A stretch of DNA of 64,000 bases from NCBI GenBank assembly GCA_000004985.1, contig GG738865.1; one strand, written 5' to 3'. Each line of letters starts with the position of its first letter. Within the stretch, counting starts at the first letter, position 1. Source of the stretch: Naegleria gruberi (taxonomy: Eukaryota). The notes under the pieces are model-generated. The model made no database searches. It had not been told where the DNA came from and saw only the letters and a list, made by a program, of their open reading frames with translations. Position numbers and translations under genes: made by a program. Shown here piece after piece: positions 17,897 through 64,000 of the stretch.

Positions 17897-17910
17897 TTAA
17901 GGCGCCAAAA
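17897..17910. promoter_or_regulatory. TTAAGGCGCCAAAA E2F-like site, 16 bp upstream of the kinase ATG (17926).
   Basis: It has the same GGCGCCAAAA core. It is the only GC hexamer in an otherwise AT-only promoter. Confidence 0.35.
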
Positions 17911-17925
17911 AATTATTTTAAAAAA

Positions 17926-19812
17926 ATGAGTAAAAGAAAAATTGGTCCTCTATTAACAAAATCGGCAACCCAACGATGGGAAGAGGCTTTCGAAGCAGTG
18001 GCTGATGACGATATCAAATTGGATATGGTACTGCAATACGTTGATAAATTGCAGGAAAGTTCCGAATTAAATTTCACGAAAACAGAATGGACAAAAACAC
18101 AATTCACCACCAAGTTTTGCTCCTTGTTGAATATTGTTCCCAAACCAGAAAATGAAAATCCTCTATGTGTTGAAGAATCACCCTTCCTGATCAGCCTTCT
18201 GTCATTGTATCAACAATTTCAAAGCAACAAGTTATCTGAATCCATTTCCTTATTTAAAGAATGTCAACAGAATATGATAAAAGAATTTGCACTTCCACCC
18301 CATAACAATACAGAGAAGGCACTCTTTTCTTTATTGTCTGCACTTGAACGATTGGAAAGAATTTCATTCGAGCGCAATTTAGGAGAGGTGGTTGTTTCTG
18401 GTGCAATGTTTTCGTTGTTAGATGTAATCTGCACACTAAAAGGTCACAAACAAAACGAGTAAGTTATGTTACTTGTTCATCACATTCAATTTTGTAGAGA
18501 CAAGCAAAACACAGTGATATTAGATGACAAAATCAAAAGCTTCAATGTAAGAAATGATGGCCTTATTCAAACTGAAAAAGACTATGTATATTGTAGAAGA
18601 GAGGATACATCTTTTGATGATCGCGTGGATTGGGAAGATTTTGGCATTGATGCCTATAAACTGATTATTTCAATGAAGAGCCAGCTGAAACAAAACATGA
18701 ATACAGTATTTATGTGCCAAGAAGAAATTAACAAATATAGCAAAGTCTTGGGGTTATGTTATACCAAATTAGATACATTCGTTTTTATATTAGATGCACA
18801 AATTAATAAGAAAGGAAATGAAAACATCCCAGAATATTCTCTCTACTTTCAAAGGTTTGATATGAAGTTGCATGGAGCGATATTATTGTTTACGTATATT
18901 ATGCAATTTATTTTGCAATACGTTCCTTCTAATATTTTCACAACCATCACTCCTTTCAGACCAGCCAATACACCAAATAAGCTTTTGATACCAACTGGGC
19001 AATTACTATCTGATATTCTCAGTTCAAAGAGGTGTAGTAAAATTTCCAAACACGGAAAAGTGGTGTTAAAAAAACACGAAGACGAAAAGAACGAAAGAGT
19101 CAACTATGTCCTACAATCAAACTCTTTCCTGAAAGTGGTTTCACCTGAAGAGAAAGAAATCATTCTGAAATTGATTAGTAATTCATGTTACTGCATGTAC
19201 TTGCCCCAAATTCTAAATGTGTATAAGAATGACGTAGAGTTTGAAAAGTTGAACAGTCTCCCAGAGAAAATGTCTGAAAAAGATATAATGGCCTTGGCAA
19301 TAGATATTTCCATAGCATTGAACCATCTCCATGGCCACAATATTATTCATAGAGATGTTAAGCCCGATAATATAATGACTAGATCACTCAGTGATCCATC
19401 AAGCTTCATGTGGTTTGTATTAATTGACTTTGGGTTAAGTTTAGAGTTTGTGGAAAAGAATGGAATATACTTTTGCAAAAATTCAGGAACTGAAATCAAC
19501 GAAAACTTAGGTACCAGTATTTTTAAAGCCCCAGAAGTTGCTGCTTCCCAACCATACACTGAGAAATGTGACATTTACTCATTGGGAGCCTCTTTATTGT
19601 ATCTGAAAAATGAATCAGTCTTTTTACAACTGTGGAGACAGGGTATTAAGAACATTCCAACAAACATGTTGAAAACTCTAGATTGGGATTACACTGAATT
19701 TGGTGATATCATTAGGGATATGGTGGCTGATGATCCAAAAATTAGACCTTCAGCAGAAAATATTGAAAATCGCCTTTCAACGTTATTCCAAAACTGCATT
19801 AACCTTGATTGA
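17926..19812 (+). CDS. Ser/Thr protein kinase with an N-terminal domain of unknown function. Two exons: 17926..18458 and 18498..19812.
   Basis: A 39-nt GTAAGT..TAG intron joins the ORFs in frame. The kinase has HRDVKPDN and DFGLS motifs plus APE-like and C-lobe motifs. ATG is confirmed. Confidence 0.7.
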
Positions 19813-21185: not shown

Positions 21186-21570
21186 TATTTCAAATAATTG
21201 TTGTAAATAAATTGAAATTGTTGTTGCCTTCCTTAATATTGTGGTAATCGTACATTGTTTCGAATAAATCAAAGGCTAGCAATCATGAAAAGGAGATGAT
21301 CATCAATTACTGTATTGAGTTTTACGATTGTTATCTACAGTCTTCTTACTATTTCAGTAACTATTCTCAAAAATCATGACAATAGAATTTGTTTGAACGT
21401 GATGATAACAATTGTTTGCCGCCAACAACTTTTCCGTTACGTTCATCAAGGCTTTTCCGAAGGCTTTGTGTGTAAAGAAGTCTACCTTGAAATTGCGCTC
21501 AAAATTTTTTCGCAAGAGAGTTTGGCTGCAACAGAACTCACTCCAATAAAAAAAACCAACAAAAAATACA

Positions 21571-25349: not shown

Positions 25350-25811
25350 ATATGTTTATACTTTTTTGAAGTTTACGCAACAGTGTCACATTCTTTGACA
25401 TTTCAACTTTTCAATTTTTGTAAAGTTCTTTAAATTGTTATGGTTTTCATATTATTTAAGGCAAATAAATAGTGAACTTGATGAATTTACAAATTTCACC
25501 AACTTCATATCCAATTGTTTGAAAAAAATATCATCAAATCAACAACATGCTGCAATTCATATTGGTCACCACATTACGTGCTTCTTGATCCTTCTTGAGG
25601 GAGGAATAAAAAAATAGTTTACAAAATTTAGGAGATTTTGGATTTTAAACAAAATACTCAAACAGTAGTACATCATGATATTTATGTCATCTGTGCTTGA
25701 ACGAATCCAATAATGTGGTGACCAAGCCATTGGAAAGATTGTCATCATATAAACTTGTGTGAATTTCAGAAGTTCACAACCTTGAGAATTTCAAAAACCA
25801 ACACAAAAAAA

Positions 25812-26357
25812 ATGGCGCAACATTCCCTGTGCAACAATGATGAATGCAACAAACGAATTCGATCCACCATTGAACAATTACCCACCGAATGTTGGTTAAA
25901 TATTTTCAAATATTTAGAATTGCAAGAAATTAAAAGAATTTCCCTCCTAATGAGTCCTGTCATTACTTGGCAATTATTGGACACAACTGATCAGAGTTTT
26001 TTCCGATTATTGTGTGAAGCAAATTTAAAAAGTGATTTGGAGAAGGTTATTCAATCCATTATAGAAAGACCTCAGGTACCACAGTTAGCATACAAGGTGT
26101 TGAAAGGAGCAAGTGCATTGCCACGTAGTCAATTCGTGTACTCCATTTCACAATTGAGAGAAAAACTTAGAATTTGTGTTTTAAAATCAAAAGTATTGTT
26201 TCCTAATTGGTTTAAAGAGGAATCTTTGAATGAATCAATTGATGAAGCTGTTCAGTATTCCTATTCGATTAATAGACCAGTAGTTTTTGATGATGATGAA
26301 AATGATGAAATTGTTGGAAATTATGTGGAAAAGCAAAGACGAAAGGCATCAATTTAG
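25812..26357 (+). CDS. F-box protein, N-terminal part, terminated by a single in-frame TAG (see findings).
   Basis: An F-box motif LPTECWLNIFKYLELQEIKRISLL is present. ATG is at 25812. The frame continues open immediately after the TAG at 26355..26357. Confidence 0.55.
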   Translation: MAQHSLCNNDECNKRIRSTIEQLPTECWLNIFKYLELQEIKRISLLMSPVITWQLLDTTDQSFFRLLCEANLKSDLEKVIQSIIERPQVPQLAYKVLKGASALPRSQFVYSISQLREKLRICVLKSKVLFPNWFKEESLNESIDEAVQYSYSINRPVVFDDDENDEIVGNYVEKQRRKASI

Positions 26358-27517
26358 AAGAGATTAAAATTGAAGAGCTACACTTTTTTGAAAGATTTGC
26401 AAAAGCAAGTTGACAAACAATCAAAAAGACCTACTAAATGGAAATCAGTATGGAATGGTTATTGTAATCAGCACGTTATCAATGATATTACAAATTACAC
26501 ATTAGAATTGGAACATTCCGTGCTAAAAGAAGATGAATTAGTTCCAGATGATTTATATAGATTTATAGAAAAAATCAACAAGTTGTTTGATATGGAACCT
26601 CTATTAAGAAGAAAGATAATGTTCGAAACCATGGCGTTTCCTACCAAGAAATCTAGGACGGCCAATACACATTTTAGGAGGTTCAATACGGAAGTGTATC
26701 GTATTGATTTCCAAGACAGCTCAGTTTTCTTTTCTAAAATTGTGAGAATTTTCTCAAAATTCAGAACAACCATATCTTCTTACTATGTTGCAGAGAAGTA
26801 TAAGAATATCATTGACTTTTTTGTGCAGGAATCAATTGAATATGGAGTTAAAATTCCAATTCTTGTTGATTGTAAGTTTTTTATTCATGTTTGATTTACA
26901 AGTTTTTAGGTTTCTTGGAGAATAATGCACCAATTCACTCGATTCTAACATCCGACTATGGCGGATTGGGTTTGCATATTATTAGAAAGTACCCTCATTT
27001 CATTAAGGAAAGCTCAATAGATTTCAGATTCTATATTCTAGTCAGGTGTTTGAAACATCACTTGGATATCAATATCATTCATTCACTCTTTTATAGTGGG
27101 ATACTCGATTCTAATGTTTTGGAGCATGTACACCGTAATCAATCTGGAGCTACGCCTATAAATCGTTGTAGTATTGGAAAAAGGAATCAAGATACACTTG
27201 ATGGGTCAATGCCTTTATATTTCATGTATGCCATTCATCGACAATATCTTACGAATGAGAATAGATGTTACTTTAGAGAAATATTTAATTTATTTATTGA
27301 TTGCTTTGAAGGAAGAAAAATCCCAGAGTCAAGAAATCCAAATTCTGGAAATTCATTTCATAGATCTGAAAATCATCAATTCCAACAATTCTTGGAAGGA
27401 GCTCTTAATTTCCATTATTATTCATTTAAGGATTTTGCTAAAGAAATGGAAGAACTCAAATTTCCCAAGGACCAAGAAATTGAAACCAACATCTATCAAG
27501 AAGGAGATGAATGGTAA
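26358..27517 (+). pseudogene. Downstream continuation of the F-box reading frame. Two exons: 26358..26871 and 26910..27517, joined by a 38-nt GTAAGT..TAG intron. It is either the C-terminal domain of the F-box protein (with a stop interruption or sequence error) or a separate gene with an internal ATG.
   Basis: It has the same frame as 25812..26357. There is no ATG for the first 74 codons, and the ORF-track start at 26370 is a TTG. The intron restores the frame (..ILVD|CFLENNAPIHS..). Confidence 0.45.
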
Positions 27518-29085: not shown

Positions 29086-31026
29086 TTATTCAACGTCAAG
29101 ATCATTAAAAGTTGGAGCTTTTGTTTCTGTTGGTTCTGATTGAAATGAATCAGAGGAAGCAGCAGATTGAGGAGAATGAATGTTAGCCATAATTGGAGAA
29201 CAAATTCTTTCTAATTGTTGCTTCTTTTGTTCAATTTCTTCCAATGAACAACTCAATACATTATTCATATTATCTAACCATGATTGAATCTCATTACATG
29301 CAGAGTTGACCTTACTCTTATCATCTTGTGAGATCTTTGTTGAATAGTTAGGATCTTCCATGGTAGATTTGATGGAGAAGACATAATTTTCCAATGAATT
29401 CTTTGCATCAATCTTTTCCTTTGCAATTTTATCTTGAGCTTCCATTTCTTGAGCTTGTTTTAACATTTCTTTGATTTCTTCATCGGATAATCTTCCTTTT
29501 TCATTGTTAATAGTTAAAGATTCAGTCTTACCAGAACATTGAGCAGAAACTGTCATGATACTATTAGTGTCAACATTAAATGTCACATCAATTACTGGAA
29601 CACCTCTTTTAGCAGGTGGAATTCCTTCCAAATTGAATTTACCCAATAAGTGATTATCCTTTGTCAATGGTCTTTCACCTTCATACACTTGAATAGTGAC
29701 AGCTGTCTGATTATCAGCATAGGTAGAAAATTGCATGGTTTTCTTACATGGAATCTTTGAATTTCTATCAATCAATTTAGTCATTACTCCACCAGCAGTT
29801 TCAATTCCCAATGACAATGGAGCAACATCAACCAATAGAACTTTCTTTTCCTTTCCTGTCAACACAGCACCTTGAACAGCAGCTCCATAAGCAACTGCTT
29901 CATCTGGATTGATTGACTTGCAAAGTTCTTTACCATTGAAGAAGTCTTTGAGCATATCTTGAACTTTTGGAATACGAGTTGAACCACCAACCAAAACAAT
30001 GTCATCAATTTGTGACTTGTCATAACCAGAATCTTGAATTACCTTCTTGACAGGTTCGAAACATTTCTTGAACAATTCCAAATTCAATTGTTCAAATTTG
30101 GCACGTGTCATGACAATGTCCATATCCAATCCATCCATAATGGCATCCACGTTAATGGAAGCATTCGATGCTGCAGATAAATTTCTCTTTGCTCTTTCAC
30201 ATGCAGTTCTCAATCTTCTTAATGCTCTTGGATTTTCCTTAACATTCTTCTTGAACTTTCTCTTGAATTCTTCACAACAGAATTCGACCATCAAATTATC
30301 AAAATCTTCACCTCCTAAATGGGTATCACCTGCTGTTGCTTTCACTTCAAATAATTCACCATCATCAATGTCAAGAATTGAAACATCAAATGTACCACCA
30401 CCCAAATCGAATATCAAAACAGTTCTTTCACCTTTCTTATTTAAACCATAGGCAATAGCAGCAGCTGTTGGTTCATTAACAATTCTCAAAACATCTAAAC
30501 CAGCAATGGTTCCACTATCTTTGGTGGATTGTCTTTGAGAGTCATTGAAATAGGCAGGAACTGTGATGACTGCCTTCTTTACAGTTTTACCCAAATATTG
30601 TTCAGCAATGTCTTTCATTTTGGTTAGAACCATGGCTGAGATTTGTTCTGGAGTGAATGTGTGAATTTCACCTTTGAATTCGACTTGAATTTTAGGTTTA
30701 TCATCACCTGTTTCAGAGACAACTTTGAATGGCCAATGTTTCATATCATCTTGAACAGTTTCCTCTGAAAACTTTCTACCAATTAAACGTTTAGCATCGA
30801 ATACAGTATTGTGTGGGTTCATTGCCACTTGATTCTTTGCAGAATCACCAATCAATCTCTCTTGATCTGTGAATGCAACATAGGAAGGAGTTGTTCTATT
30901 ACCTTGATCATTTGGAACAATTTCAATAGTATCATTCATGTAAACACCAACACAGGAATAGGTTGTTCCCAAATCAATTCCAATAGCACCGTCAAATAGT
31001 TCAGAAGTTGTTGAAGTAGTAGACAT
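29086..31026 (-). CDS. Cytosolic Hsp70 (HSPA/Hsc70 family), intronless.
   Basis: It has [20 protein letters not shown] and the full NBD/SBD. It is 646 aa. The C-terminus ends ..FNDLDVE rather than canonical EEVD. Confidence 0.95.
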
Positions 31027-31332
31027 TTTGAAATTATAGTATATTAATTACAATAGTATTGTTTTTTTTCAGTTTGTGATTTTGTTGCTGCTGTTGATAA
31101 ATGTTGCATTGGTGGTTTTTATATAGATTGTTGTTTGTGGATTTTGTCATGGAAGTTATTTCGGTAAATAAGGAAGTGAAACCGAAAATCAAGGAAATTA
31201 AGGAACTGAGATACCGAAGTTACCGAGAGTGAAAATTAGATATTTTTCAGACCATTTTTGTAAACAACCAACTTTCAATCAGAATCCAAAAGTAATATTT
31301 TTAAATTCTTTAATGTTTAGTAATAGTATAAA

Positions 31333-31344
31333 TTTTGGCGCCAA
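31333..31344. promoter_or_regulatory. TTTTGGCGCCAA palindromic E2F-like site, 15 bp upstream of the Ser-rich protein ATG (31359).
   Basis: It shares the GGCGCCAA core with the sites at 33531 and 17897. Confidence 0.4.
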
Positions 31345-31358
31345 TCAAATACAAAAAA

Positions 31359-33518
31359 ATGTTTCGAGGTGGTAAACCCACTGCTTCTCGGGTTTCTACG
31401 AATATACAAAAACCATCCACGAATAGGGTATTACCCTCATCAGCATCATCAAAAGGTGGTACTTCTGCTTCTTCGGGAGTAAAAGGAGTAGTCACTACAC
31501 CATCCACTCCAAAGACAAGGCTATCAGCAGCATCATCGGTGGTGAGAACTTCCTCTTCATCGCAACCTCAACCATCTAAGAGCCCTAGTAATATTGGAAA
31601 GAATAATATACATTATAATCATAGAAATCCTAGTGAGGATATATCCCGAGAATCAAATAATAGTAAAATTGAGGAAGAAGATGACGACGATATGGAAATA
31701 ATGTCAGTCAATGACCAATATCAATATTTAAAAGACTCGAACAAATCTAAGGATCAAAATTCTAGTATCAAGTCAATTAGATCAAGTCGATCGAGTAAAT
31801 CTAATAGATCTACAATGTCGGAAATGGGTATGTCTGACGATTCAATCCCTTTGAAAATGAAAAAGAAGGTTCAAATTGAAACTCCAAGAGAAAGGGACTA
31901 CAGAGATTCAAGAGATTCTAGTAGTACTCGTTCAATACCAACTGAGGAGCAAAATGAGGACTTTGGGGAAGAGCAAAGTGTATCCAGTTCAAATAATTCT
32001 CTTCATATTTTATCTTCTGTGAGAAGAAAGTTAAAGGAGGAAGAGGCAGAAGAAGAGCAACCTGTAAATAACAATCCCAGACCTTCAAGAATTGCTGAAT
32101 ATATCAAAAGATTTAGAACAGCTCCTCCTACACAGAGGAGTGAACGAAAACGTTTGGAATTTGAGGATGAAAAGGAAGAACCAATACCAGTACCAAGAAA
32201 TGAGAGAAGGAAATCACCAGAGTTAGAATCTCTGGTTACTAATTCTAGAGAAGATAATCGATCATGGATGAAGAGAGCAATGCAAAGCTCCATAGATAGC
32301 TCTCATCCTTCCATAAGAAACATTAATCAAATGAAAGAATCGATCAAGCAAGAAATAATGGATGTGGAGGACAACATTGAGCGTGCAAAAAGATACTCTC
32401 AATTTAACCTAGATGAAGAGGAAGCCCTGGCCCTTTCAACACAAGATCATTTTTCATATATGGATACTCTAGACTTTAATATCAACGAACTTAATAATAT
32501 TACAGATTTAGCTCTGGAAAATGGAAGTTTCAAAATGTTTGGGAATGTTGAAAGTATTCTGTCGAAGCTGTCTAACGAAAAAACCAATCAATCTAAGGAC
32601 TCGATAAATTCTGAAAAGAAAATGGATGAAACTAGTGATTCAAGTGACGAAGAAAAACTAGATGAAATGTTTAGAAAAGGAGTATTATCGAGATTACAAT
32701 CCATTGGGCTTCACGAGTCATATTTGGATCTGGAAAGTTATGATATTCTAAGTAGTAACGAGAAACCAAAAATTGAGAATGTCAAAGTTGATAAACTGGA
32801 TGAGTTAAAGAAGGAAAGCGAGCAAGTTGAAAAATTGCTTCAAGGGAAAAAAAGCCGAGAGAATTCAATTATTTTAGAGAAAGAAAAGGAATTACCAAAA
32901 CTTACTCAAAAAGATTCAAATCATTCAATACTAAGTAGTGTGAAATCCTCTTCCCAATCTTTGTTGTCTGAGGAAAAGTCACCTTCAAAATATGAGATTA
33001 GTATAGATCATGAAGATATGGAGGAAGGTTTCTTCCCTGTAGTAACCATTAAATCAGACAAGTCTGGCCCAGTTGTTTCTCAATCAATGGAATCATTAGA
33101 GAGTGACAATAGTGCGTTTGAGTCGAGACAATTAGACTTTGTTGACGAAGAAGAATTAATTCAAAGACAAAAGAAAAGCGAGCTAACACCACCAATGATG
33201 ACAGAAAGTATTGACAGTCTTCTTGGTAAATCCATTGAGTCTGTTTCATCAGTATCATCTGCAAATGATAATGATATGAGTACTATGGGATATTGTCAAC
33301 GAATGATTGAACAAATGGTTAGTTCAGAACCAGAACCTGAACCAGAAAAACCAATCATTGAAAAATCAATAGAAAAGAAAGAAGTAATTGATATTAATGA
33401 TGATAATCATGAACTCTTTACCAATGATTACATTTGCCAAACACTACGACAAAAAATAGATCAATTGAAAAGCAGATTAGTAGAGTTGGAGAAGAAGGAT
33501 TCCCTTCTCAAATACTAA
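31359..33518 (+). CDS. Ser-rich acidic low-complexity protein with a C-terminal coiled coil. The start is re-anchored to ATG (MFRGGKPTAS...).
   Basis: The ORF is open for about 720 codons. It has S/T runs, acidic blocks, and a terminal heptad segment (LRQKIDQLKSRLVELEKK). I recognise no family. Confidence 0.5.
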   Translation: MFRGGKPTASRVSTNIQKPSTNRVLPSSASSKGGTSASSGVKGVVTTPSTPKTRLSAASSVVRTSSSSQPQPSKSPSNIGKNNIHYNHRNPSEDISRESNNSKIEEEDDDDMEIMSVNDQYQYLKDSNKSKDQNSSIKSIRSSRSSKSNRSTMSEMGMSDDSIPLKMKKKVQIETPRERDYRDSRDSSSTRSIPTEEQNEDFGEEQSVSSSNNSLHILSSVRRKLKEEEAEEEQPVNNNPRPSRIAEYIKRFRTAPPTQRSERKRLEFEDEKEEPIPVPRNERRKSPELESLVTNSREDNRSWMKRAMQSSIDSSHPSIRNINQMKESIKQEIMDVEDNIERAKRYSQFNLDEEEALALSTQDHFSYMDTLDFNINELNNITDLALENGSFKMFGNVESILSKLSNEKTNQSKDSINSEKKMDETSDSSDEEKLDEMFRKGVLSRLQSIGLHESYLDLESYDILSSNEKPKIENVKVDKLDELKKESEQVEKLLQGKKSRENSIILEKEKELPKLTQKDSNHSILSSVKSSSQSLLSEEKSPSKYEISIDHEDMEEGFFPVVTIKSDKSGPVVSQSMESLESDNSAFESRQLDFVDEEELIQRQKKSELTPPMMTESIDSLLGKSIESVSSVSSANDNDMSTMGYCQRMIEQMVSSEPEPEPEKPIIEKSIEKKEVIDINDDNHELFTNDYICQTLRQKIDQLKSRLVELEKKDSLLKY

Positions 33519-33530
33519 TAACATGGTTTG

Positions 33531-33548
33531 AATTTTGGCGCCAAAATT
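33531..33548. promoter_or_regulatory. Perfect 18-bp palindrome AATTTTGGCGCCAAAATT, an E2F-like site. It lies 37 bp upstream of the APC8/Cdc23 ATG.
   Basis: The sequence is read directly from the window. TTTGGCGC matches the TTTSSCGC E2F consensus on both strands. Confidence 0.5.
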
Positions 33549-33584
33549 AAAAAGAATTTTCACGTTTAAACAAATTAAAAAAAA

Positions 33585-35624
33585 ATGAATGAATTCTCGC
33601 CAACAACATCAACCCTAACAACGAGAGACGAACTCAGGAGAGTCATCACGGAAACATCAGAAAGAGGTCTTATTCATACATCAAAATGGCTCGGAGAACA
33701 ATTAATATCACTGCCAAATGAAATACTTTCTAGAGTTGCAACCTCTACAAGTATTTGCACAAATACAATACAAGCAAATGAACAATCTTTATATGATCAT
33801 TATACATTCGCAAAAACACTATTTGATTCAAAGGAATATTCTAGATGTGCTTTTATTTTACAAAAACAAACTAAACCATCGACAATGGAGTTGAATCAAA
33901 ACAAAACTAGTCTATCATCATTCAGTAAGAAATGTTTATTTGTTGAATATTATGCTCTCTTCCTATCGGGTGAGCAACAAAAACAACAAGAAGTATTGGA
34001 ATATAGTTTAAATAATTCATCAAGTACAACAGCTACTGGGGTAGGAACCAATGCTAATGCTCATCATCAAATGATTCATCAACAAAGAAATCAACAAAAA
34101 CATCACAATCAAACTCAAAACAAATATCTTAGAACTATATTGAATGATCTTAAAACATTGCATACATTGGATCAAATGGATTCCTATCTCTACTATTTGT
34201 TTGGAGTCATACTAAAGGAAATGGAAATGAAGAGTAAAGCTCTCGATTGCTTTATCAAAAGTGTAAATTATGAACCACTTATGTGGGGAAGTTGGTTGGA
34301 AATTGTTTATATTCTTATTGATTTAATGCAAGATACTACTCAAAATGACAATCAATCCACTTTAATGTCTAACACATTTAAAAAGTTCAAAAGTATTTTA
34401 AAACAACATTGGATGATGAAGGTTTTCAAATCTAGACTTCAATTGGAAACTCTTTCAAGCCAAGGCAGTTTTACTCAATTAGATTTGGATGATGGCAATG
34501 AAAATCAAACATTCAACTTGATTCAAGATTTATGTTCACAATTTCCAAACTCTAATTATTTATATTCTCAACTAGCAATGTTGAGCTACCATCAACAAGA
34601 CTTCCAACAAGCTCAAGAATATTTCGAACACATCAAAAAGAAAGATCCTTTTAGATTAGAGTTTTTGGATACATACTCTAATATTTTATATGTGAGAGAA
34701 GAAAAAGCTGAATTGAGTAAATTGGCACACGAACTACACTCAATAGATAAGTATAGAGTTGAGACATGTTGTGTTATTGGCAACTATTACAGTTTAAGAG
34801 GTGATCATGAAAAAGCTGTCTTGTATTTTAAGAGAGCACTTTCATTAGATCCAAAATATTTATCAGCTTGGACATTGATGGGACACGAGTATATTGAAAT
34901 GAAGAATACTAAAGCTGCTGTTAATGCCTATAGAAGTGCAGTTGAAATTCAATCAACAGATTACAGAGCTTGGTATGGTTTAGGCCAAACCTATGAAATG
35001 TTAGACATGTCTGATTATGCTTTGTATTATTATAGCAAATCGTGTAGTTTAAGACCATATGATGGAAGAATGTGGTCTGCTCTTGCAAATTGTTATGAAT
35101 CATTAGAACAATTTGATGATGCACTCAAATGTTATCAACGAGCATATGATAACAGAGGTGAACAATTGAGTACACTACTCAAGATGGCTAACATATTTAG
35201 AAGATTAGATCAAAATGATAGAGCAGTTGAATTATATTCGAAATGTTTAGGACACTATGAATCAGACAATGTTCCAAATCAACTTCATCAACAATTAAGT
35301 TCTGCTGATGAAGCTGGTATTTTACTTTTCCTTGCTGATTATTATTATGAAGTAGCTCAACAAGATGAACAATATATTGAAAGTGTGAAACAATATTGTA
35401 TGTTACTAATGGATGATAGATTTACAGGTCTTCCAGAAAGAGATACAGCTACCCAATTACTTCATTCACTCAATTCTAATAACCTGTTACAACCTTCCTC
35501 ATTTGAAAATCAGTTAGAATCAATTTCACAACAGCAATCCACACAAAGAATATTTGGTGGAGGAGTTTTAAATCCTCAAGATTATTCGATTGGTGGCAGT
35601 GATTCTCTAAACTTTTTGAAATAA
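33585..35624 (+). CDS. Anaphase-promoting complex subunit 8 (Cdc23/APC8), a TPR protein.
   Basis: C-terminal TPR array: CVIGNYYSLRGDHEKAVLYFKRALSLDPKYLSAWTLMGHEYIEMKNTKAAVNAYRSAVEIQSTDYRAWYGLGQTYEMLDM..YYYSKSCSLRPYDGRMW matches the Cdc23 consensus. ATG is confirmed. Confidence 0.85.
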   Translation: MNEFSPTTSTLTTRDELRRVITETSERGLIHTSKWLGEQLISLPNEILSRVATSTSICTNTIQANEQSLYDHYTFAKTLFDSKEYSRCAFILQKQTKPSTMELNQNKTSLSSFSKKCLFVEYYALFLSGEQQKQQEVLEYSLNNSSSTTATGVGTNANAHHQMIHQQRNQQKHHNQTQNKYLRTILNDLKTLHTLDQMDSYLYYLFGVILKEMEMKSKALDCFIKSVNYEPLMWGSWLEIVYILIDLMQDTTQNDNQSTLMSNTFKKFKSILKQHWMMKVFKSRLQLETLSSQGSFTQLDLDDGNENQTFNLIQDLCSQFPNSNYLYSQLAMLSYHQQDFQQAQEYFEHIKKKDPFRLEFLDTYSNILYVREEKAELSKLAHELHSIDKYRVETCCVIGNYYSLRGDHEKAVLYFKRALSLDPKYLSAWTLMGHEYIEMKNTKAAVNAYRSAVEIQSTDYRAWYGLGQTYEMLDMSDYALYYYSKSCSLRPYDGRMWSALANCYESLEQFDDALKCYQRAYDNRGEQLSTLLKMANIFRRLDQNDRAVELYSKCLGHYESDNVPNQLHQQLSSADEAGILLFLADYYYEVAQQDEQYIESVKQYCMLLMDDRFTGLPERDTATQLLHSLNSNNLLQPSSFENQLESISQQQSTQRIFGGGVLNPQDYSIGGSDSLNFLK

Positions 35625-35704
35625 ATCATACATTCCTAATCACGACAGAGTTAGGGGAATTCGATAGAAGCTAGATTCTTGTGATGAGAAATACATTAGT
35701 TGTT

Positions 35705-36487
35705 TTATTGATACTTTCGAAGAATATTCTGAATTGTATCAAGCAGTTTGTCATGCACTATTGATACTCTTTTGAAACGAGAGTTGAGATTTTTCAACGA
35801 GCTTAGATTTATCTTTAGAATATTGATATAGTCAACTGGAACAAACCCATCATGAGGTCCTCTACTTATCTGATTATTACATCTCAAACCAGTTTCAATA
35901 CTTTTCACCACTTGAAGGTTGACACGAGTTGCCATGATAAAGAATGGAATCATAAACATACTACAATTATTGAAATATTCTTTCTGAGACAAGTATGTAA
36001 TTCTTAAACTTGATTCTTCTATTAAATCCTTTCTACTTGTAATAGATATCATTATACCCAATCTCAGACCCTCAATAAGAATATCTTGTGTGAATTGAAT
36101 TCCATTCAAATATTCATCACAAATCTCATTTGAATTTTTGAAAATCTTGTCTCTAATATTGGCAATTAACAATTTGATAACTTCACTTCCAGTTTTCATC
36201 ATGTCCATACTATTTTCGTGTGAAATTTTTTCGAGTAGGAGATTAGCAATTTGAGGATGCAATCGAACACCAGTCACCATTTCATAGAGCATTGGCAAAC
36301 TTGACGAGAATTGTAAAACATCAATTTCTTGTAATGAGAAATTCTCAACAAATGAAATAGTTTTCACAGATTTGGTTTCCTGACTGGATAAGATTGGTTT
36401 CATGATATTTTGTGAATAGAATTTGGCAGAGTGGAGATGAAACTTTGAAATTTTCAATTCACCACAACCCATTTCGTACAATGCCAA
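35705..36487 (-). CDS. Hypothetical protein, 3' exon(s). The 5' end is unresolved.
   Basis: The ORF-track start is a TTG. The frame stays open a further 52 codons upstream without an ATG. A strong polypyrimidine tract plus AG lies at about 36590..36632 and suggests an intron acceptor. The protein is helical, with no family assignment. Confidence 0.4.
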   Translation of the reverse strand: MALYEMGCGELKISKFHLHSAKFYSQNIMKPILSSQETKSVKTISFVENFSLQEIDVLQFSSSLPMLYEMVTGVRLHPQIANLLLEKISHENSMDMMKTGSEVIKLLIANIRDKIFKNSNEICDEYLNGIQFTQDILIEGLRLGIMISITSRKDLIEESSLRITYLSQKEYFNNCSMFMIPFFIMATRVNLQVVKSIETGLRCNNQISRGPHDGFVPVDYINILKINLSSLKNLNSRFKRVSIVHDKLLDTIQNILRKYQ

Positions 36488-36982
36488 ATTAAGATAACTG
36501 TACGAGTTGAGTAGAGAAAGAGAATCATTACCCTTTGAAATGAACTTTCTTGATTTGAGTGCTGCTTGTTGTGCTTGTTCTTGATCACCACTTGATTGGA
36601 AACAAAGAGATTGAATAGAAAAGAAAAAGCGCTCCTCTCTTTCTTATTCGAATCTGATAGGCCACATTGTTTCATATTGCTGAATATACTTATCAAACTC
36701 TTCCCTTACCAAGTGAGGGTTTCTCTTTCGAAGACAAATGAAAAAGTTCAGTTGTAAAGGATTGGAAAAGTACCAAGAAAGAAACTCTATCGAATTTTCC
36801 AAATCAATCACTGCAAGTTTCTTATTTGGTGAAATTGGTTCGAAGAATTATCAGCCACATATAAATCTTCTCTTTTTTAAGTAGGATCTTGGGTCAAGCA
36901 TTATATTGCTCGCAGAGTCTTTTAAATCAACAAACGTTATTGAATAAGTCTTTTATTGTGAAAATTTCGAAGCCTGCCAAGT

Positions 36983-38167
36983 CTAGTTATCATCACCACA
37001 CAAATATTCAGTAACTTTTTCTTTTAGAATGTCATTCAAGGATTTGTCTGCTCCCCCCTCAAGATTTGAAGAAATAGAATCAAACCAATTTCCATTATTA
37101 ACTCTTTCCAATTCTTCAGAATTGTTTAACAAAATACTTTCCAAAAAAATTTCGTCATTTGGATCAAGTTTGTTCAATAAGGTTAATACTTTTTGACAAT
37201 TTTCGTTATTGGAGTACCTTTTAGTGTTTTGGTGACCAGCTCTATTAGATCTTAAAACGCATTTAGGAACAGGATCGCTCTCAGAGATTGGAGAATACCA
37301 TAAAGTGATCTTTGTATCTTTGGTGTACAATTTTTTCTCGTCTTTTTCTTGGATAAAATTTTTAATTCCAACATTCAATACCTTTCGTTGGGAACCAGTG
37401 AAATAAACGTTTAAAAAAGAAGATAAGGAATGATCCTTATCTTCTGCAAGTTCCAGATGGGAATAATATTCTTTAAATATTGCTCTTTCTCTATAGTTTG
37501 CTGACAACAAGAGTTCAACCGAAAATGTTTCAAATTCAAATCTTTCTGGCAACATTAAAAGATTATCTCTATATTTCTCAACCACTTGGTAAACATCTTC
37601 TTTAATGCTTTCTAATGCATGTCTTTCATAATTCAACCTATCCATAATTACCATTGAGTTATACACTTGGAATTTGTTATATTTCTCATTACCTGCTAAT
37701 CTTTCAAAATTAGCTTGTGATGATAATCTTGTCTCAATTTTACTTTTGTCAAGAGCTGAGACCAAAGCTCCAAGAGTTGAAATCGCACCACCTCCAATCA
37801 ATAAAGATCTAGTTCTTTGATTCATTGCTGCAAAAGTGTAAATAAAGAAAACGCCAAGTGCATAAACGAGATATTTAAATGAGAATTCTATGTCAAGATA
37901 TTTCCTGTCTTGGAATTCATAAGAATCAAGGGTCAATAACGGTGCAATCAGTAACAGAAGAGCAATACACCAGTGCCATGAGCTTAGGCTCTTCCACTTC
38001 CAAGTATCAGTAGGCTTCTTGGTTAATGGCTCTTGTTCTTGCTCAGACAAGCTTTCAACCACTACTTTGAATGACCTAAATCTCTTAACATTCAAGTTCT
38101 GCAAAAAAATTGGAGCAGAAAGCTTGGGGTTTCGTTTGGGAACAGCTTTAAGTAGGCTTCTTAACAT
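36983..38167 (-). CDS. Hypothetical membrane protein with a presequence-like N-terminus (MLRSLLKAVPKRNPKLS), possibly mitochondrial.
   Basis: It is 394 aa. ATG is confirmed. It has two hydrophobic helices near the N-terminus, including a glycine-zipper (IGGGAISTLGALVSAL), and a long soluble C-terminal domain. Confidence 0.5.
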   Translation of the reverse strand: MLRSLLKAVPKRNPKLSAPIFLQNLNVKRFRSFKVVVESLSEQEQEPLTKKPTDTWKWKSLSSWHWCIALLLLIAPLLTLDSYEFQDRKYLDIEFSFKYLVYALGVFFIYTFAAMNQRTRSLLIGGGAISTLGALVSALDKSKIETRLSSQANFERLAGNEKYNKFQVYNSMVIMDRLNYERHALESIKEDVYQVVEKYRDNLLMLPERFEFETFSVELLLSANYRERAIFKEYYSHLELAEDKDHSLSSFLNVYFTGSQRKVLNVGIKNFIQEKDEKKLYTKDTKITLWYSPISESDPVPKCVLRSNRAGHQNTKRYSNNENCQKVLTLLNKLDPNDEIFLESILLNNSEELERVNNGNWFDSISSNLEGGADKSLNDILKEKVTEYLCGDDN

Positions 38168-39372
38168 TTTTTAATAATGGAAAAAAAAATTTTGATAATG
38201 ATTATTTTATACATAATCTTTTTAGTAACAGAAATGGATAGAGATTCCATTTTGAACAAGAAATCATTATTATAATTATAATTATTATAAATTTGGAAAT
38301 TCCTTTTATTGATTTTTAATTCAATTAACAACTTGGTTTTGGGAATGGCATTTTTAAACAAATACAGTTCTGTACGTTTTTATTTTAAAAACATTATTAC
38401 CAATTTTACAATACCAAACAATGATTTAGAAATGAATCCATTTAAAGACCTACCCTCTATCTATTCAGCATTGAAAACTCCACAGTAATAATGTATTTCA
38501 TACTCTCCCAATAATACACCCTCAATTATATTCTTCATAAAATCCTATTAAACTTCCTCTCCTCAATATTCCATTATCATCATCACTACAACCTTCTCTC
38601 CCTATTACATAACACCTCCAGAAGAACATTCCTCCAATAATAACAGCACGTTTATCAACTTCTTACTTTGAGGCTTATTTAAAATTGTTTGTGCTTTAGA
38701 AATTTTTTAAAGTTTGAAAAAAATCAGCGAAGAGATAGACGACAATAGACCAAACAACAACGTGAAAATATATATTTATTTCATGTGAAACCTACAAAAT
38801 TCAAAATGAATGAATCTTTTCTCTGTCAATGAAAAAAGAGGATATACACTTTTTAATTTATTTCTTTTTTCGAATTTCACGCTCTTCTGTTCCGATTAGA
38901 TTCGAATATTGATATTTAGATATGTTCCAGCCAAATGTGTGAAAAACAACAAGCATTATTGTGTATTAAGTCAACTCCAAAATATATAAAAAAATTGAGA
39001 AATTACGAATTATACATCATTAGTTCTGTATTTTTTGATTGCGTTCAGGAGGAAGCAATTTGAAAAAAGCAATTCGGAGGTTAATGAAATAATTCAATTA
39101 AGGGTGATGCACGATGAAGAAAATTGATAGCTGTAGCATAAATCATTCAATTTACAATTAGATATTAATTTTTATTGAATATGAACATTTTCATATTTGA
39201 TTTTATTGTCTTATACATATTCATTAAAATCCATCTCACTACTTTCTATTTTGCTTTGTTGTGAATACTATCACAAGTTGATACATCTTGTTCTTCAACC
39301 TTCATCTATATTGTTTTCGGAGGCTTGTTGAAAAATTCTTCATCAAATCATCAAATAAAATATTAAAAAAAA

Positions 39373-41036
39373 ATGTCTTCATCACAAAACAATAACTCGC
39401 TGCGTAATTCTTCATCCATGATGATGAACGGAATGAATCAGCAAAAGATGGGCAATAATAATAATACAAGTAGATCGCAACATCCTAATCAACATTATGA
39501 TCATTTTGCGAGAGAGGTACTACAACGTGTAATTTCGGATACATGTAGATATTATGGATTTCATGCTATTAAAAGTAGTACAAGTGATTTTTTAATTGAT
39601 TTGGTGCAAATGTTTATTCAAAAAATTGCCACAACAAGTGTAATGTATAGTAGTCATTGTGGAAGAACAGAACCAAATGTATTTGATGTTGAAAAATCAT
39701 TAAATCATCATATGGGCTTGGATATTAACGATTTATTATCTTTCTTTTACATTTTACAAGATAAATCTGAAGAAAATTCTGTTGATTTGTCAACATTTGA
39801 ATTTGGTAAGTTTGATAAAAATAATCAAATAACCTTTAACTTTATTTAGACATTCCTGATATTCCTAAAGCACCACTTTCAAGTTTAATGTCATGTCCAC
39901 AAACTCATTTCCATTTACTCTATAAAAACAAAGCAAAATCACTTTTATTTATTGATGAAGAAGAGGAAGAAGAACATGAAAGACAAATTAAATTAATTGA
40001 ACAACAAAAACCAACATTTCTACCAGCTTTACCACCTAAACATACATTTAGATTTACTCCTATTATGAATAAGAGAACAAGAGATCAATATAGAATTCAA
40101 TTAGAAAAGACAAGACAAAGAAGACATATTGAAGAATCTTTAACAAGACTTCATGAAGCTGAATTGAAACAAGTTCGTGATTTATTAGAATTGAATGAAG
40201 TAAATGGAGAAAATGCATCACAACAATTGGAACAATTAATTAAAACCAAGAAAAAGACAATTGTCCAAAAGAATGATGTTTTATTACATCTTGAAAAGAA
40301 ACCAACTACAAATGTATTAACTCAAAAGAAGAAGGAAGAACAAGCAATTCAACAATCTATTACAGAAGATGATGAGGAACCTGTTGAAGAGGTTGCTGTA
40401 GAGGATAACATTCAAACAATTGTTAATCCATATTTACAAATTGAAAAACAAAGAGTTTCATTGGCAGTTCAAAGAAATGTTACAAACAGTTCATCAAATC
40501 CTCATAATGTCACAAGGTTGACCAATATTCTAACAACACCTAAAAAGAGCACAACTATTAAGAAACCTTTTATTTCACTTATTACAAGAGATGACAGTGC
40601 AGAAGTTCAAGCAAATAATTTAATGAAAAGTGGTGCTATTGCTAATACTACTCAAACATTATCAACAATATCAAATGATGATGGTTATATTGATAATGCT
40701 CAAATAACTCCAAAACAAAAAAAGAATTCCATAATGGAAACATCTATTGGAGGTTCAATCAACAGATCTGCTTCATCATCTGTTTTGAATGATTCAACTT
40801 TAATGCCACCACCTTCTTCTCTTCCTCCTCAATTTGCACCTCCAACCTTCCTCTCTAGTCTTATGGGTTCAAATACTGCTGTAAATAATGAAGTTATTGA
40901 ACCAATCATTAGTAATAATCAACCAATGTTAAATATTGGAAGTTCTATTGCCCCTCCTCCCTCATCTGATTTTGAAGAGGATGAATTTGAAGAAGTTGAA
41001 ATTGATGAACCAAATTCTAAAAAGTTGAAATTTTAA
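39373..41036 (+). CDS. TFIID subunit TAF8-like (Bromo_TP / histone-fold domain). Two exons: 39373..39805 and 39850..41036.
   Basis: A BTP-like histone fold (FAREVLQRVISDTCRYYGFHAIKSSTSDFLIDLVQMFIQKIA..) is present. A 44-nt GTAAGT..TAG intron follows. The conserved TAF8 motif LPALPPKHTFRFTP comes immediately after the splice. Confidence 0.7.
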
Positions 41037-41138
41037 ACTAGGAAAACAAATACTTCTAAGTACGATTATAATAATAAATATAATGTTACAAAATTGTATT
41101 TGACACTCTAATTTACACAGTTATTTTACAAAAATGAA

Positions 41139-42359: not shown

Positions 42360-42776
42360 TTTTTTTTACTGCATGATGAAATTTTCCAAAGCCTTTGCAA
42401 AAAGATAATCAATTGATTATGATGATGATTTACTTTTTATTTATTTTTTAATGGAAATTCATACAAATGATGAATGAAGAATGTTTATAGCCAAGAAAAT
42501 TACAATTTCAATATTTTCTGATATTCTTCATCGGGTGATGAAAGTTTATTTAATTATTTATCATACATCAGGCGGGAAAAATATTCAATTAAAATTTGTG
42601 ATGAAAAAATTACTTCATAAAAAAAAGTGAAAAAAAAAAGCATCAACAAATTTTCAGAGTTGTTCTGAGAACATTAAATTTATAACCATCAACAAATTTT
42701 AAAGCGGATTCACACAATTTTGACCATATTATCATCATAGTTAACAAAACAATAACAACAATATCATTGGAAAATT

Positions 42777-44578: not shown

Positions 44579-44680
44579 ATAAATTATTTTAGTTCAATCT
44601 TAAATTCCAGCCAATAGGTTTTACTCTTTGTGGAGCCATAGTTCAATAGTTAATGATCAGCTTATTGTAAAGAATGGCGT

Positions 44681-63600: not shown

Positions 63601-64000
63601 NNNNNNNNNNNNNNNNNNNNNNNNNNNNNNNNNNNNNNNNNNNNNNNNNNNNNNNNNNNNNNNNNNNNNNNNNNNNNNNNNNNNNNNNNNNNNNNNNNNN
63701 NNNNNNNNNNNNNNNNNNNNNNNNNNNNNNNNNNNNNNNNNNNNNNNNNNNNNNNNNNNNNNNNNNNNNNNNNNNNNNNNNNNNNNNNNNNNNNNNNNNN
63801 NNNNNNNNNNNNNNNNNNNNNNNNNNNNNNNNNNNNNNNNNNNNNNNNNNNNNNNNNNNNNNNNNNNNNNNNNNNNNNNNNNNNNNNNNNNNNNNNNNNN
63901 NNNNNNNNNNNNNNNNNNNNNNNNNNNNNNNNNNNNNNNNNNNNNNNNNNNNNNNNNNNNNNNNNNNNNNNNNNNNNNNNNNNNNNNNNNNNNNNNNNNN
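60661..64000. other. Assembly gap (3340 N) to the end of the window.
   Basis: Run of N. Confidence 1.

What the first reader, a model, noticed from the sequence alone, without database searches (positions are those of the whole stretch)
33531..33548. Recurrent palindromic GGCGCCAA(AA) E2F-like motif placed 15-40 bp upstream of three start codons, including APC8/CDC23
In promoters that are otherwise over 85% AT, the same GC core appears three times. AATTTTGGCGCCAAAATT (33531..33548, a perfect 18-bp palindrome) sits inside the 67-bp spacer before APC8. TTTTGGCGCCAA (31333..31344) sits before the Ser-rich gene. TTAAGGCGCCAAAA (17897..17910) sits before a protein kinase gene. TTTGGCGC is the textbook E2F/DP binding consensus. 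APC8 is a core cell-cycle gene. This suggests a conserved E2F-type cell-cycle cis-element in this lineage. It also provisionally links the two unannotated neighbours (the Ser-rich coiled-coil protein and the kinase) to cell-cycle-regulated expression. A weaker GGCGGGAAA site at about 42545 may be a fourth.
Basis: partly seen in the sequence, partly recalled or inferred. Interest (0 to 1): 0.55.

Follow-up and report, generated by a model that had tools for sequence, protein, structure and literature searches.

The report
E2F-type promoter sites in Naegleria
Three short GC-rich palindromes just upstream of genes in this Naegleria gruberi segment match the classic binding site of the E2F cell-cycle transcription factor. 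A similar site precedes the APC8/CDC23 gene in five related genomes, so it is most likely a real, ancient promoter element, though an expected kind rather than a new one.

Summary
**Observation: confirmed.** GGCGCC occurs three times in 60.6 kb against 0.24 expected. Each copy lies in a TT(T)GGCGCCAA context, 14-36 nt before an ATG (a divergent kinase, a Ser-rich protein, and APC8).

**Source.** The window is Naegleria gruberi.

**Evidence that these are E2F-family sites**
- They match TTTSGCGCSAAA/TTTSSCGC exactly.
- GGCGCC ranks first in an unbiased 6-mer test of upstream regions.
- N. gruberi encodes E2F, DP, a DEL/E2F7-8-like protein and RB. Its E2F and DP recognition helices are the same as in human E2F4/DP2 apart from one Met-to-Leu difference in DP.
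- An E2F-like core lies in the upstream spacer of APC8 in five other genomes: within 50 nt of the ATG in N. lovaniensis, Acrasis kona and two uncultured relatives, and about 205 nt upstream in a third uncultured relative.
- Two Naegleria-type cyclin A genes carry a conserved pair of E2F-like sites 25 bp apart, though inside the reading frame.

**Rejected:** RNA hairpin, repeat family, chance.

**Not shown:** protein binding, cell-cycle expression, and any role for the two unannotated neighbour genes. In Cryptosporidium the same motif is not tied to one expression class.

**Verdict:** a real element and a new lineage record of a well-known kind. Interest is moderate.

The parts
33531..33548 (.). 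Perfect 18-bp palindrome AATTTTGGCGCCAAAATT. It amounts to two overlapping inverted E2F half-sites (TTTGGCGC on each strand). It sits in the 66-bp spacer between the stop codon of the Ser-rich gene (33518) and the APC8 ATG (33585).
   Evidence: TTTSGCGC matches on both strands.
31333..31344 (.). TTTTGGCGCCAA, an E2F-like dyad. The + strand half is the full TTTGGCGC; the - strand half is ATTGGCGC. It ends 14 nt before the ATG of the Ser-rich gene and lies about 310 nt from the divergent HSP70 ATG (31026).
17897..17912 (-). TTAAGGCGCCAAAAAA, which reads TTTTTTGGCGCC on the - strand. It has one full E2F half-site plus the palindromic core, and ends 13 nt before the kinase ATG.
33585..35624 (+). 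APC8/CDC23 gene, intronless, 679 aa.
   Evidence: Pfam ANAPC8 7.6e-37. Matches the N. gruberi model P0002 at 473 of 474 residues apart from a 12-residue segment that model lacks. The N-terminus is conserved in the relatives.
31359..33518 (+). Ser-rich gene of 719 aa, function unknown.
   Evidence: No Pfam or PDB match.
17926..19812 (+). Divergent protein kinase gene, 615 aa after removal of one 39-bp intron (18459-18497, GTAAGT...TTGTAG). The N-terminal 380 aa are unannotated.
42571..42579 (-). GGCGGGAAA (TTTCCCGCC on the - strand), a weaker candidate E2F site. It lies mid-way in the 418-bp divergent spacer between a nucleoside-hydrolase-like gene (ATG 42359, - strand) and a WD40 gene (ATG 42778, + strand).
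   Evidence: There is no counterpart in the orthologous N. lovaniensis spacer.
21415..21425 (+). TTTGCCGCCAA, a weaker candidate E2F site about 150 nt upstream of the ATG (21572) of an HMG-box gene.

Best explanation
The GGCGCC-centred motifs are binding sites for the Naegleria E2F family: an E2F-DP heterodimer and/or the two-domain DEL/E2F7-8-like protein. They act as proximal promoter elements.

Proposed mechanism. Each winged-helix domain reads one half of the CGCG-type core through its RRxYD helix. The flanking T/A tracts give the canonical TTTSSCGC. The perfect dyad before APC8 offers the site in both orientations, as in the mammalian DHFR promoter (TTTCGCGCCAAA). By analogy with animals and plants, activator E2F would switch these genes on in proliferating cells, and RB-bound E2F or DEL would repress them outside that window.

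Shown here.
- The sequence matches the consensus.
- The sites are non-random and promoter-proximal.
- The cognate factors are encoded, with conserved DNA-contact residues.
- An E2F-like core upstream of APC8 is conserved deeply across Heterolobosea-like lineages.

Inferred, not shown.
- Actual protein binding.
- The direction and timing of regulation.
- Whether the kinase and the Ser-rich gene are cell-cycle genes.
For: 1. Consensus and statistics. GGCGCC occurs 3 times against 0.24 expected, and TTGGCGCC gives 5 strand hits against 0.07 expected. TTSSCGC gives 8 strand hits against 1.22 expected, with 0 of 100 shuffles reaching that. GGCGCC is the top 6-mer in upstream regions, p = 8e-5. This holds in a CpG-depleted genome (CpG observed/expected 0.37).
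2. Cognate factors. NgruE2F, NgruDP, NgruDEL and NgruRB are in the Medina 2016 source data. NgruE2F aligns to E2F4 in 1CF7 with [24 protein letters not shown] identical. NgruDP aligns to DP2 with KNIRRRVYDALNVLMA identical.
3. Footprint upstream of APC8.
- N. lovaniensis has ATCCCGCC ending 45 nt before the ATG. It holds the only GGCGGG in 22 kb.
- Acrasis kona has GGCGGGAA ending 5 nt before the true ATG. It is the only TTSSCGCS in 7.7 kb.
- Metagenome locus L006 has GAGCGCCAA ending 5 nt before the ATG. It is the only TTSSCGC in 5.95 kb.
- Locus L007 has TTTTCCCGCC ending 16 nt before the ATG, inside a 43-bp divergent spacer. It is the only TTSSCGC in 9.3 kb.
- Locus L008 has TTTGGCGC ending 205 nt before the ATG. 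It is the only TTSSCGC in 8 kb.
- Taking observed motif densities, the chance of a TTSSCGC within 60 nt of the ATG in four of five loci is about 1e-7. This is my own arithmetic.
4. Cyclin A. Two TTSSCGC sites lie exactly 25 bp apart at the homologous place in an N. gruberi-type contig and in a relative with 66% protein identity. The CC-to-GG change at the first site keeps the consensus.
5. Precedent. The same TGGCGCCA and TTTGGCGGGAA motifs dominate upstream regions in Cryptosporidium parvum, another AT-rich compact protist genome that encodes E2F/DP (PMC3734150).
Against: - There are no binding or expression data of any kind.
- APC8 is not a textbook E2F target.
- The two other downstream genes have no recognisable function.
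- The N. lovaniensis APC8 site is one or two bases off the strict consensus, and its T/A flanks are inverted.
- The cyclin A sites lie inside the reading frame rather than in the promoter, so their conservation could partly reflect protein constraint (SNGKxGxK).
- No canonical S-phase gene (MCM, PCNA, RNR) could be examined.
- In Cryptosporidium the E2F-like motif is not linked to any particular expression profile, so 'E2F site' does not by itself mean 'cell-cycle regulated'.
- The sample is 60 kb plus about 70 kb of related loci, not a genome.
Confidence: 0.75

Rival explanations
1. These are genuine E2F-family sites, but they work as general or constitutive promoter elements, not as a cell-cycle switch. 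In very short spacers they would simply recruit an abundant activator or position the transcription machinery, as is suspected in Cryptosporidium. The downstream genes would then not be co-regulated with the cell cycle.
For: - In C. parvum, E2F-like motifs occur upstream of genes in 163 of 200 expression clusters with no common profile.
- The downstream genes here are heterogeneous: a divergent kinase, a Ser-rich protein and APC8. Weaker candidates precede an HMG-box gene and a WD40 gene.
- The sites sit in extremely short spacers of 43-66 bp, where they may be the only specific element.
Against: - N. gruberi, unlike Cryptosporidium, retains RB together with E2F, DP and DEL, which is the full repressor/activator module.
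- Only about 3-5 of roughly 30 genes in the window carry a site, so it is selective, not general.
- The two genes with recognisable cell-cycle roles that could be checked, APC8 and cyclin A, both carry sites.
Confidence: 0.25
2. The motif is a functional promoter element read by some other DNA-binding protein, for example a lineage-specific factor or a GC-box/KLF-type zinc finger, and only resembles the E2F site.
For: - No binding data exist.
- Orientation and distance to the ATG vary among sites and species.
- The N. lovaniensis version (AAATCCCGCCTTTG) fits the strict E2F consensus poorly.
Against: - What the sites share across six lineages is exactly TT-SS-CGC-S with T/A-rich flanks. That is the E2F signature, not GGGGCGGGG (a GC box) and not TTGGC-N5-GCCAA (NFI).
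- Substitutions between orthologous sites (GGCGCC to GGCGGG) stay within the E2F degeneracy.
- The Naegleria E2F and DP recognition helices are the same as those that read this sequence in 1CF7, apart from one Met-to-Leu difference in DP.
Confidence: 0.12
3. The palindromes act at the RNA level, as hairpins in the 3' end of the upstream transcript or the 5' UTR of the downstream one. They would serve, for example, in 3'-end formation or translational control.
For: The APC8 palindrome starts 13 nt after the stop codon of the upstream gene, so it is probably transcribed as part of that gene's 3' UTR.
Against: - Predicted folding of the three spacers is no better than shuffled sequence: z = -0.15, +1.17 and +0.59.
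- Two of the three sites lie in divergent spacers with no upstream 3' end.
- The orthologous sites (GGCGGGAA, TTTTCCCGCC) are not palindromes.
Confidence: 0.03
4. The motif is a chance recurrence, a low-complexity artefact, or copies of a small repeated element.
For: There are only three sites in a single 60-kb window.
Against: - 0 of 100 dinucleotide-preserving shuffles reach 3 GGCGCC.
- All three copies fall in the 4% of sequence just upstream of start codons.
- The flanks beyond about 8 bp do not align, so they are not copies of a repeat.
- E2F-like sites recur independently at APC8 in five other genomes.
Confidence: 0.01

Closest known systems
Canonical E2F/DP binding site (TTTSSCGC; palindromic optimum TTTSGCGCSAAA) of animal and plant G1/S promoters, for example the inverted overlapping E2F sites TTTCGCGCCAAA of the mammalian DHFR promoter. 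The E2F4-DP2-DNA structure is 1CF7.
   Same: - The sequence is identical in form: TTTGGCGCCAAA lies within 33534-33545.
- The position is promoter-proximal.
- The genome encodes E2F, DP, an atypical two-domain E2F (DEL) and RB.
- The RRxYD recognition helices are the same as in the solved complex, apart from one Met-to-Leu difference in DP.
   Different: - The lineage is Heterolobosea (Discoba). I found no published description of E2F sites in its promoters in the held library.
- The target genes seen here are not the classic replication genes.
- The sites lie only 5-45 nt from the ATG, in spacers as short as 43-66 bp.
- Binding and periodic expression are untested.
E2F-like upstream motifs of Cryptosporidium parvum: 5'-TGGCGCCA-3' (DTTGSCGCCH) and TTTGGCGGGAAV (Oberstaller et al. 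2013, PMC3734150).
   Same: - Both are AT-rich, compact protist genomes.
- The same two variants occur, a palindromic GGCGCC core and GGCGGGAA.
- The sites lie just upstream of genes.
- E2F and DP are encoded.
- In both cases the identification is computational.
   Different: - In C. parvum the motif is upstream of most genes (about 2,400), shows no common expression profile, and no RB is found.
- In this Naegleria window only about one gene in ten carries it, and RB is present.
- That leaves room for a classical RB-E2F switch.
CDE/CHR tandem element of animal G2/M promoters, which binds the DREAM complex: a CDE (GGCGG-type) followed 4 nt later by the CHR TTTGAA.
   Same: A TTTGAA lies next to the GC core in the APC8 promoters of N. 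gruberi (TTTGAA-TTTT-GGCGCC, 33527-33542) and N. lovaniensis (CCCGCC-TTTGAA). APC8 is a mitotic gene.
   Different: - The order and spacing are wrong. TTTGAA lies upstream of the core in N. gruberi and abuts it in N. lovaniensis.
- TTTGAA is absent next to the APC8 site in Acrasis and L007, and next to the other two window sites.
- TTTGAA is common in AT-rich DNA.
- I do not file the element under this family.

Membership tests
E2F/DP-family binding site | The sequence matches TTTSSCGC (strict TTTSGCGC). | tested here: met
   All four TTTSGCGC strand hits in the window belong to the three sites. The APC8 site matches on both strands.
E2F/DP-family binding site | The motif is over-represented and concentrated in promoter-proximal DNA. 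| tested here: met
   - GGCGCC: 3 against 0.24 expected.
- TTSSCGC: 8 against 1.22 expected.
- GGCGCC is the top 6-mer in 26 upstream regions, p = 8e-5.
- The test covers only a 60-kb window, not the genome.
E2F/DP-family binding site | The organism encodes E2F and DP with the DNA-contacting RRxYD helices intact. | tested here: met
   N. gruberi E2F, DP, DEL and RB sequences come from PMC4862756 source data. Alignment to 1CF7 chains A and B shows recognition helices matching apart from one Met-to-Leu difference in DP.
E2F/DP-family binding site | The site is conserved at orthologous promoters (phylogenetic footprint). | tested here: met
   An E2F-like core lies 5-45 nt before the APC8 ATG in N. 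lovaniensis, Acrasis kona, L006 and L007, and 205 nt before it in L008. It is the only TTSSCGC match in L006, L007 and L008. The kinase and Ser-rich orthologues could not be obtained.
E2F/DP-family binding site | The motif is present at canonical E2F target genes. | tested here: inconclusive
   - Cyclin A carries a conserved pair of sites, but about 550-650 nt inside the reading frame.
- The N. gruberi-type contig also has one GGCGCC about 820 nt upstream of the cyclin A ATG.
- No MCM, PCNA, RNR or CDC6 locus could be retrieved.
E2F/DP-family binding site | E2F-DP (or DEL) physically binds the sequence. | not testable with these tools
   This needs EMSA, DAP-seq, ChIP or CUT&RUN.
E2F/DP-family binding site | Transcription of the downstream genes is periodic with the cell cycle and depends on RB. 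| not testable with these tools
   No expression data are available here. The Cryptosporidium precedent shows the motif alone does not guarantee this.
CDE/CHR (DREAM) element | A CHR (TTTGAA) lies 4 nt downstream of the CDE on the same strand. | tested here: not met
   TTTGAA lies 4 nt upstream of the core in N. gruberi, abuts it in N. lovaniensis, and is absent at the other sites.
NFI site (TTGGC-N5-GCCAA) | Two half-sites are separated by a 5-bp spacer. | tested here: not met
   The half-sites abut (TTGGC|GCCAA) with no spacer. The orthologous sites (GGCGGGAA) lack the NFI halves.
Interspersed repeat or MITE terminal sequence | The copies share homologous flanks beyond the core. | tested here: not met
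   Alignment of +/-50 nt shows identity only in AATT..GGCGCCAA.

The most novel reading that the evidence does not exclude
An E2F-to-APC8/CDC23 regulatory link has been kept since the common ancestor of Naegleria and Acrasis, a deep split with only 46% APC8 protein identity.

In these compact genomes the E2F dyad may be the principal, perhaps the only, sequence-specific promoter element in spacers of 43-66 bp. In divergent spacers it may serve both neighbouring genes.

In addition, cyclin A may carry a conserved intragenic E2F module: two sites 25 bp apart, embedded in coding sequence. It would act as an internal regulatory element or as an alternative promoter.
Probability: 0.3. Interest if true: 0.6.

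Novelty: new member of a known kind. Interest (0 to 1): 0.42.

Why it matters
E2F-RB control of the cell cycle is thought to date back to the last eukaryotic common ancestor. That view rests mainly on the presence of the proteins, and the cis-elements have been documented mostly in animals, plants and a few protists.

Recognisable, positionally conserved E2F sites in Heterolobosea, a lineage far from animals and plants, would add DNA-level evidence that the network's wiring is ancient as well as its parts.

It would also give Naegleria researchers, including those working on the pathogen N. fowleri, a first candidate promoter element and a way to predict proliferation-linked genes.

It is nonetheless the expected result, not a surprise.

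Tried and rejected
**Searches that failed or gave nothing usable**
- I looked for the exact N. gruberi contigs through window proteins (APC8, HSP70) and model P0002. None is on record, so no further N. gruberi genome sequence could be scanned.
- To save capped searches I concatenated several proteins into one query. One search (Ser-rich plus kinase) returned nothing. One search (E2F, cyclin A and kinase) returned only proteins of at least 626 aa. The candidate filter appears to exclude hits much shorter than the query. As a result, orthologues of the kinase, the Ser-rich protein, E2F, DP, DEL and RB were not obtained. Only two cyclin A loci came back.
- L004 and L009 (APC8 relatives) start inside the gene and have no upstream DNA.

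**Annotation of the two unannotated neighbour genes**
- Pfam at E <= 5 and PDB sequence searches gave nothing for the Ser-rich protein or for the kinase N-terminal 380 aa.
- The kinase domain matches only generic CAMK-like kinases, with a weak BUB1 hit at 35 bits among many others.

**Explanations rejected**
- RNA hairpin or terminator: folding is no better than shuffled sequence.
- Repeat family: the flanks do not align.
- CDE/CHR reading: the order and spacing are inconsistent.
- A short - strand ORF starting at 17879, which would have made the kinase site a 46-bp bidirectional promoter. The LRR gene more plausibly starts at 17530 (MGSQNTK after an A-run).

**Weaker sites**
- GGCGGGAAA at 42571 has no counterpart in the orthologous N. 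lovaniensis spacer.
- The TTTGGCGC at L001 21294 lies at the 3' end of an ORF and does not look like a promoter site.

Full report
**1. What is in the sequence**

- AATTTTGGCGCCAAAATT at 33531-33548 is a perfect 18-bp palindrome. It lies in the 66-bp spacer between the stop codon at 33518 and the ATG at 33585.
- TTTTGGCGCCAA at 31333-31344 ends 14 nt before the ATG at 31359.
- TTAAGGCGCCAAAAAA at 17897-17912 ends 13 nt before the ATG at 17926.

These are the only three GGCGCC in the window, against 0.24 expected; none of 100 dinucleotide-preserving shuffles reaches 3. TTGGCGCC gives 5 strand hits against 0.07 expected. The tetramer GCGC occurs at only nine places in 60.6 kb, and three of them are these sites. 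No other all-G/C palindromic hexamer occurs at all.

The window is strongly CpG-depleted, with an observed/expected ratio of 0.37. A CpG-centred hexamer that survives only next to start codons therefore stands out.

In an unbiased 6-mer test on 26 upstream-100-nt regions, GGCGCC ranks first. All 3 of its occurrences fall in 4.3% of the sequence, p = 8e-5.

The three sites share only AATT..GGCGCCAA and are not copies of a repeat.

- The spacers are 69-77% AT rather than above 85%.
- The 'fourth' site GGCGGGAAA is at 42571-42579.
- Real sequence stops at 60660.

**2. Organism and genes**

The gene after the 18-bp palindrome is APC8/CDC23 (Pfam ANAPC8, 7.6e-37). Its product matches the Naegleria gruberi model P0002 at 473 of 474 residues, apart from a 12-residue segment that model lacks. 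It is 80% identical to the N. lovaniensis protein. The window is therefore N. gruberi.

The gene at 17926 is a divergent protein kinase with one 39-bp GTAAGT...TTGTAG intron. The gene at 31359 is a 719-aa Ser-rich protein. Neither that protein nor the kinase's 380-aa N-terminal region matches anything in Pfam or the PDB.

HSP70 lies divergently upstream of the Ser-rich gene. An LRR gene lies divergently upstream of the kinase and most plausibly starts at 17530. Both sites are therefore proximal to the + strand genes.

**3. Does the lineage have the factor?**

The source data of Medina et al. 2016 (PMC4862756) contain N. gruberi E2F, DP, a two-domain DEL (E2F7/8-like) protein and RB.

Searched against solved structures, NgruE2F aligns to the E2F4 DNA-binding domain of 1CF7, with the recognition helix [24 protein letters not shown] identical. 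NgruDP aligns to DP2, with KNIRRRVYDALNVLMA identical. From established knowledge of that structure, the RRxYD residues read the CGCG core. The expected specificity is therefore the canonical TTTSSCGC.

**4. Conservation**

This is the strongest new evidence. APC8 loci could be retrieved from other genomes.

| Locus | APC8 identity to window | Site | Gap from site end to ATG | Rarity in locus |
|---|---|---|---|---|
| N. lovaniensis (L001) | 80% | AAATCCCGCCTTTG | 45 nt | only GGCGGG in 22 kb |
| Acrasis kona (L005) | 46% | GGCGGGAA | 5 nt | only TTSSCGCS in 7.7 kb |
| Metagenome L006 | 52% | TTTTGAGCGCCAA | 5 nt | only TTSSCGC in 5.95 kb |
| Metagenome L007 | 45% | TTTTCCCGCC | 16 nt, in a 43-bp divergent spacer | only TTSSCGC in 9.3 kb |
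| Logan contig L008 | 40% | TTTGGCGC | 205 nt | only TTSSCGC in 8 kb |

For Acrasis the true ATG was recognised by the conserved N-terminus.

Taking the observed motif density in each locus, the chance that four of five loci have a TTSSCGC within 60 nt of the ATG is of order 1e-7. This is my own arithmetic.

The surrounding spacers are otherwise unalignable. Gene order upstream of APC8 also differs between the two Naegleria species. What is kept is therefore the element, not the neighbourhood.

**5. A canonical target**

The only other cell-cycle gene I could reach was cyclin A.

On an N. gruberi-type contig (L002) the reading frame starts at 885 with the published N-terminus and a destruction-box-like REILRDVTN. 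GGCGCC occurs at 64 (about 820 nt upstream). A cluster GGGCGCCAAAA...GCGGCAAAAAAATCCCGCC lies at 1437-1481, inside the open frame.

A relative with 66% identity (L003) has GGGCGGGAAA and GGCGGGAA at the homologous place.

In both, two TTSSCGC hits on the minus strand are exactly 25 bp apart. The first sits in a roughly 35-bp DNA block that is far better conserved than its surroundings, and the CC-to-GG difference keeps the E2F consensus.

This supports a link between the motif class and a classic E2F target. The intragenic position means protein-level constraint cannot be excluded, so I score this test as inconclusive.

**6. Rivals**

- RNA structure is not supported. The three spacers fold no better than shuffled sequence, and the orthologous sites are not palindromes.
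- A CDE/CHR reading is tempting because TTTGAA adjoins the core in both Naegleria APC8 promoters. However, the order and spacing are wrong, and TTTGAA is missing next to the Acrasis and L007 sites and the other two window sites.
- NFI (which needs a 5-bp spacer) and the GC box do not fit what the sites have in common.
- The rival I take most seriously is that these are true E2F-family sites without cell-cycle specificity. In Cryptosporidium parvum the same TGGCGCCA and TTTGGCGGGAA motifs are the commonest upstream motifs but track no expression class (PMC3734150).
- Against that, Naegleria keeps RB, and only about one gene in ten in this window carries a site.

**7. Other candidate sites in the window**

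- TTTGCCGCCAA at 21415 lies about 150 nt before an HMG-box gene.
- GGCGGGAAA at 42571 lies in the middle of a 418-bp divergent spacer. It has no counterpart in N. lovaniensis and should be treated as weak.

**8. Known or new**

E2F sites are textbook. E2F, DP and RB in N. gruberi are published. CpG depletion in Naegleria is published (PMC12695648).

I found no paper in the held library that describes E2F sites in Naegleria or heterolobosean promoters. That is absence within this library only.

I therefore rate this as a new member of a known kind. It is real, well supported computationally, moderately interesting for the deep conservation at APC8, and not surprising.

**9. Limits**

- Nothing here shows binding or periodic expression.
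- Only about 130 kb of sequence was examined.
- Orthologues of the kinase and the Ser-rich gene could not be obtained, because two capped protein searches were lost to a query design that failed.

Noticed in passing
L002 1400-1485 and L003 7915-7980 (cyclin A loci): A pair of E2F-like sites exactly 25 bp apart lies inside the cyclin A reading frame, between the destruction-box region and the cyclin box. The pair is conserved between an N. gruberi-type contig and a relative with 66% protein identity. The first site sits in a roughly 35-bp block (TTTCAAATTYGAGTAACGGTAAAKTGGGCGSSAAA) that is much better conserved than its surroundings. It could be an intragenic regulatory module, an internal promoter, or a protein motif (SNGKxGxK).
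   Followed up: partly
window, the ~10 nt before most start codons (e.g. 17916-17925, 31350-31358, 33575-33584, 39363-39372, 42360-42369): Most genes have a run of A immediately before the ATG (AAAAAAAATG). TAAAAA, CAAAAA and AAAAAA are among the most enriched 6-mers upstream of start codons. It looks like a strong A-rich initiation context or a very short 5' leader.
   Followed up: no
whole window compared with L001 (N. lovaniensis): The CpG observed/expected ratio is 0.37 in this N. gruberi window but 0.70 in the orthologous N. lovaniensis region, while GpC is about 0.82-0.85 in both. CpG depletion in Naegleria despite very low 5mC has been reported (PMC12695648). The difference between the two species was not pursued.
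   Followed up: partly
window 33885-33923 region (APC8 residues 102-113) and L002 ~1375-1820: The published N. gruberi gene models appear to splice out stretches that are in-frame and open. One is 12 residues of APC8. The other is 148 residues of cyclin A, and it includes the E2F-like cluster. These predicted introns may be spurious.
   Followed up: partly
window 33527-33532 and L001 9956-9961: A TTTGAA, the sequence of the animal CHR element, lies next to the E2F-like core in the APC8 promoters of both Naegleria species: 4 nt upstream of the core in N. gruberi and directly abutting it in N. lovaniensis. It is absent next to the APC8 site in Acrasis and L007, and could be chance in AT-rich DNA.
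   Followed up: partly
L007 3260-3302: In an uncultured relative, APC8 and a divergent EamA/PUNUT transporter gene are separated by only 43 bp between their start codons. The TTTTCCCGCC site lies in the middle, so it may be a minimal bidirectional promoter.
   Followed up: no
window 29086-45784 compared with L001: Gene order downstream of APC8 is conserved between N. gruberi and N. lovaniensis: an unknown 260-aa gene, TAF8, a nucleoside-hydrolase-like gene, a WD40 gene and an RNase PH gene. The upstream neighbours differ: HSP70 plus the Ser-rich gene in one, a divergent serine carboxypeptidase in the other. N. lovaniensis also has an extra pectate-lyase-like gene and about 1 kb of extra DNA before the RNase PH gene.
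   Followed up: no
window 60661-64000: The last 3.3 kb of the window are N padding. Real sequence ends at 60660, so the window reaches the end of a contig or scaffold.
   Followed up: yes
window 12517-14975 and 25755-27517: Several adjacent ORFs abut or overlap by a few bases: 12517-14040 with 14037-14975, and 26370-26894 with 26891-27517. None has a Pfam match. They may be single genes split by short introns or frameshifts.
   Followed up: no
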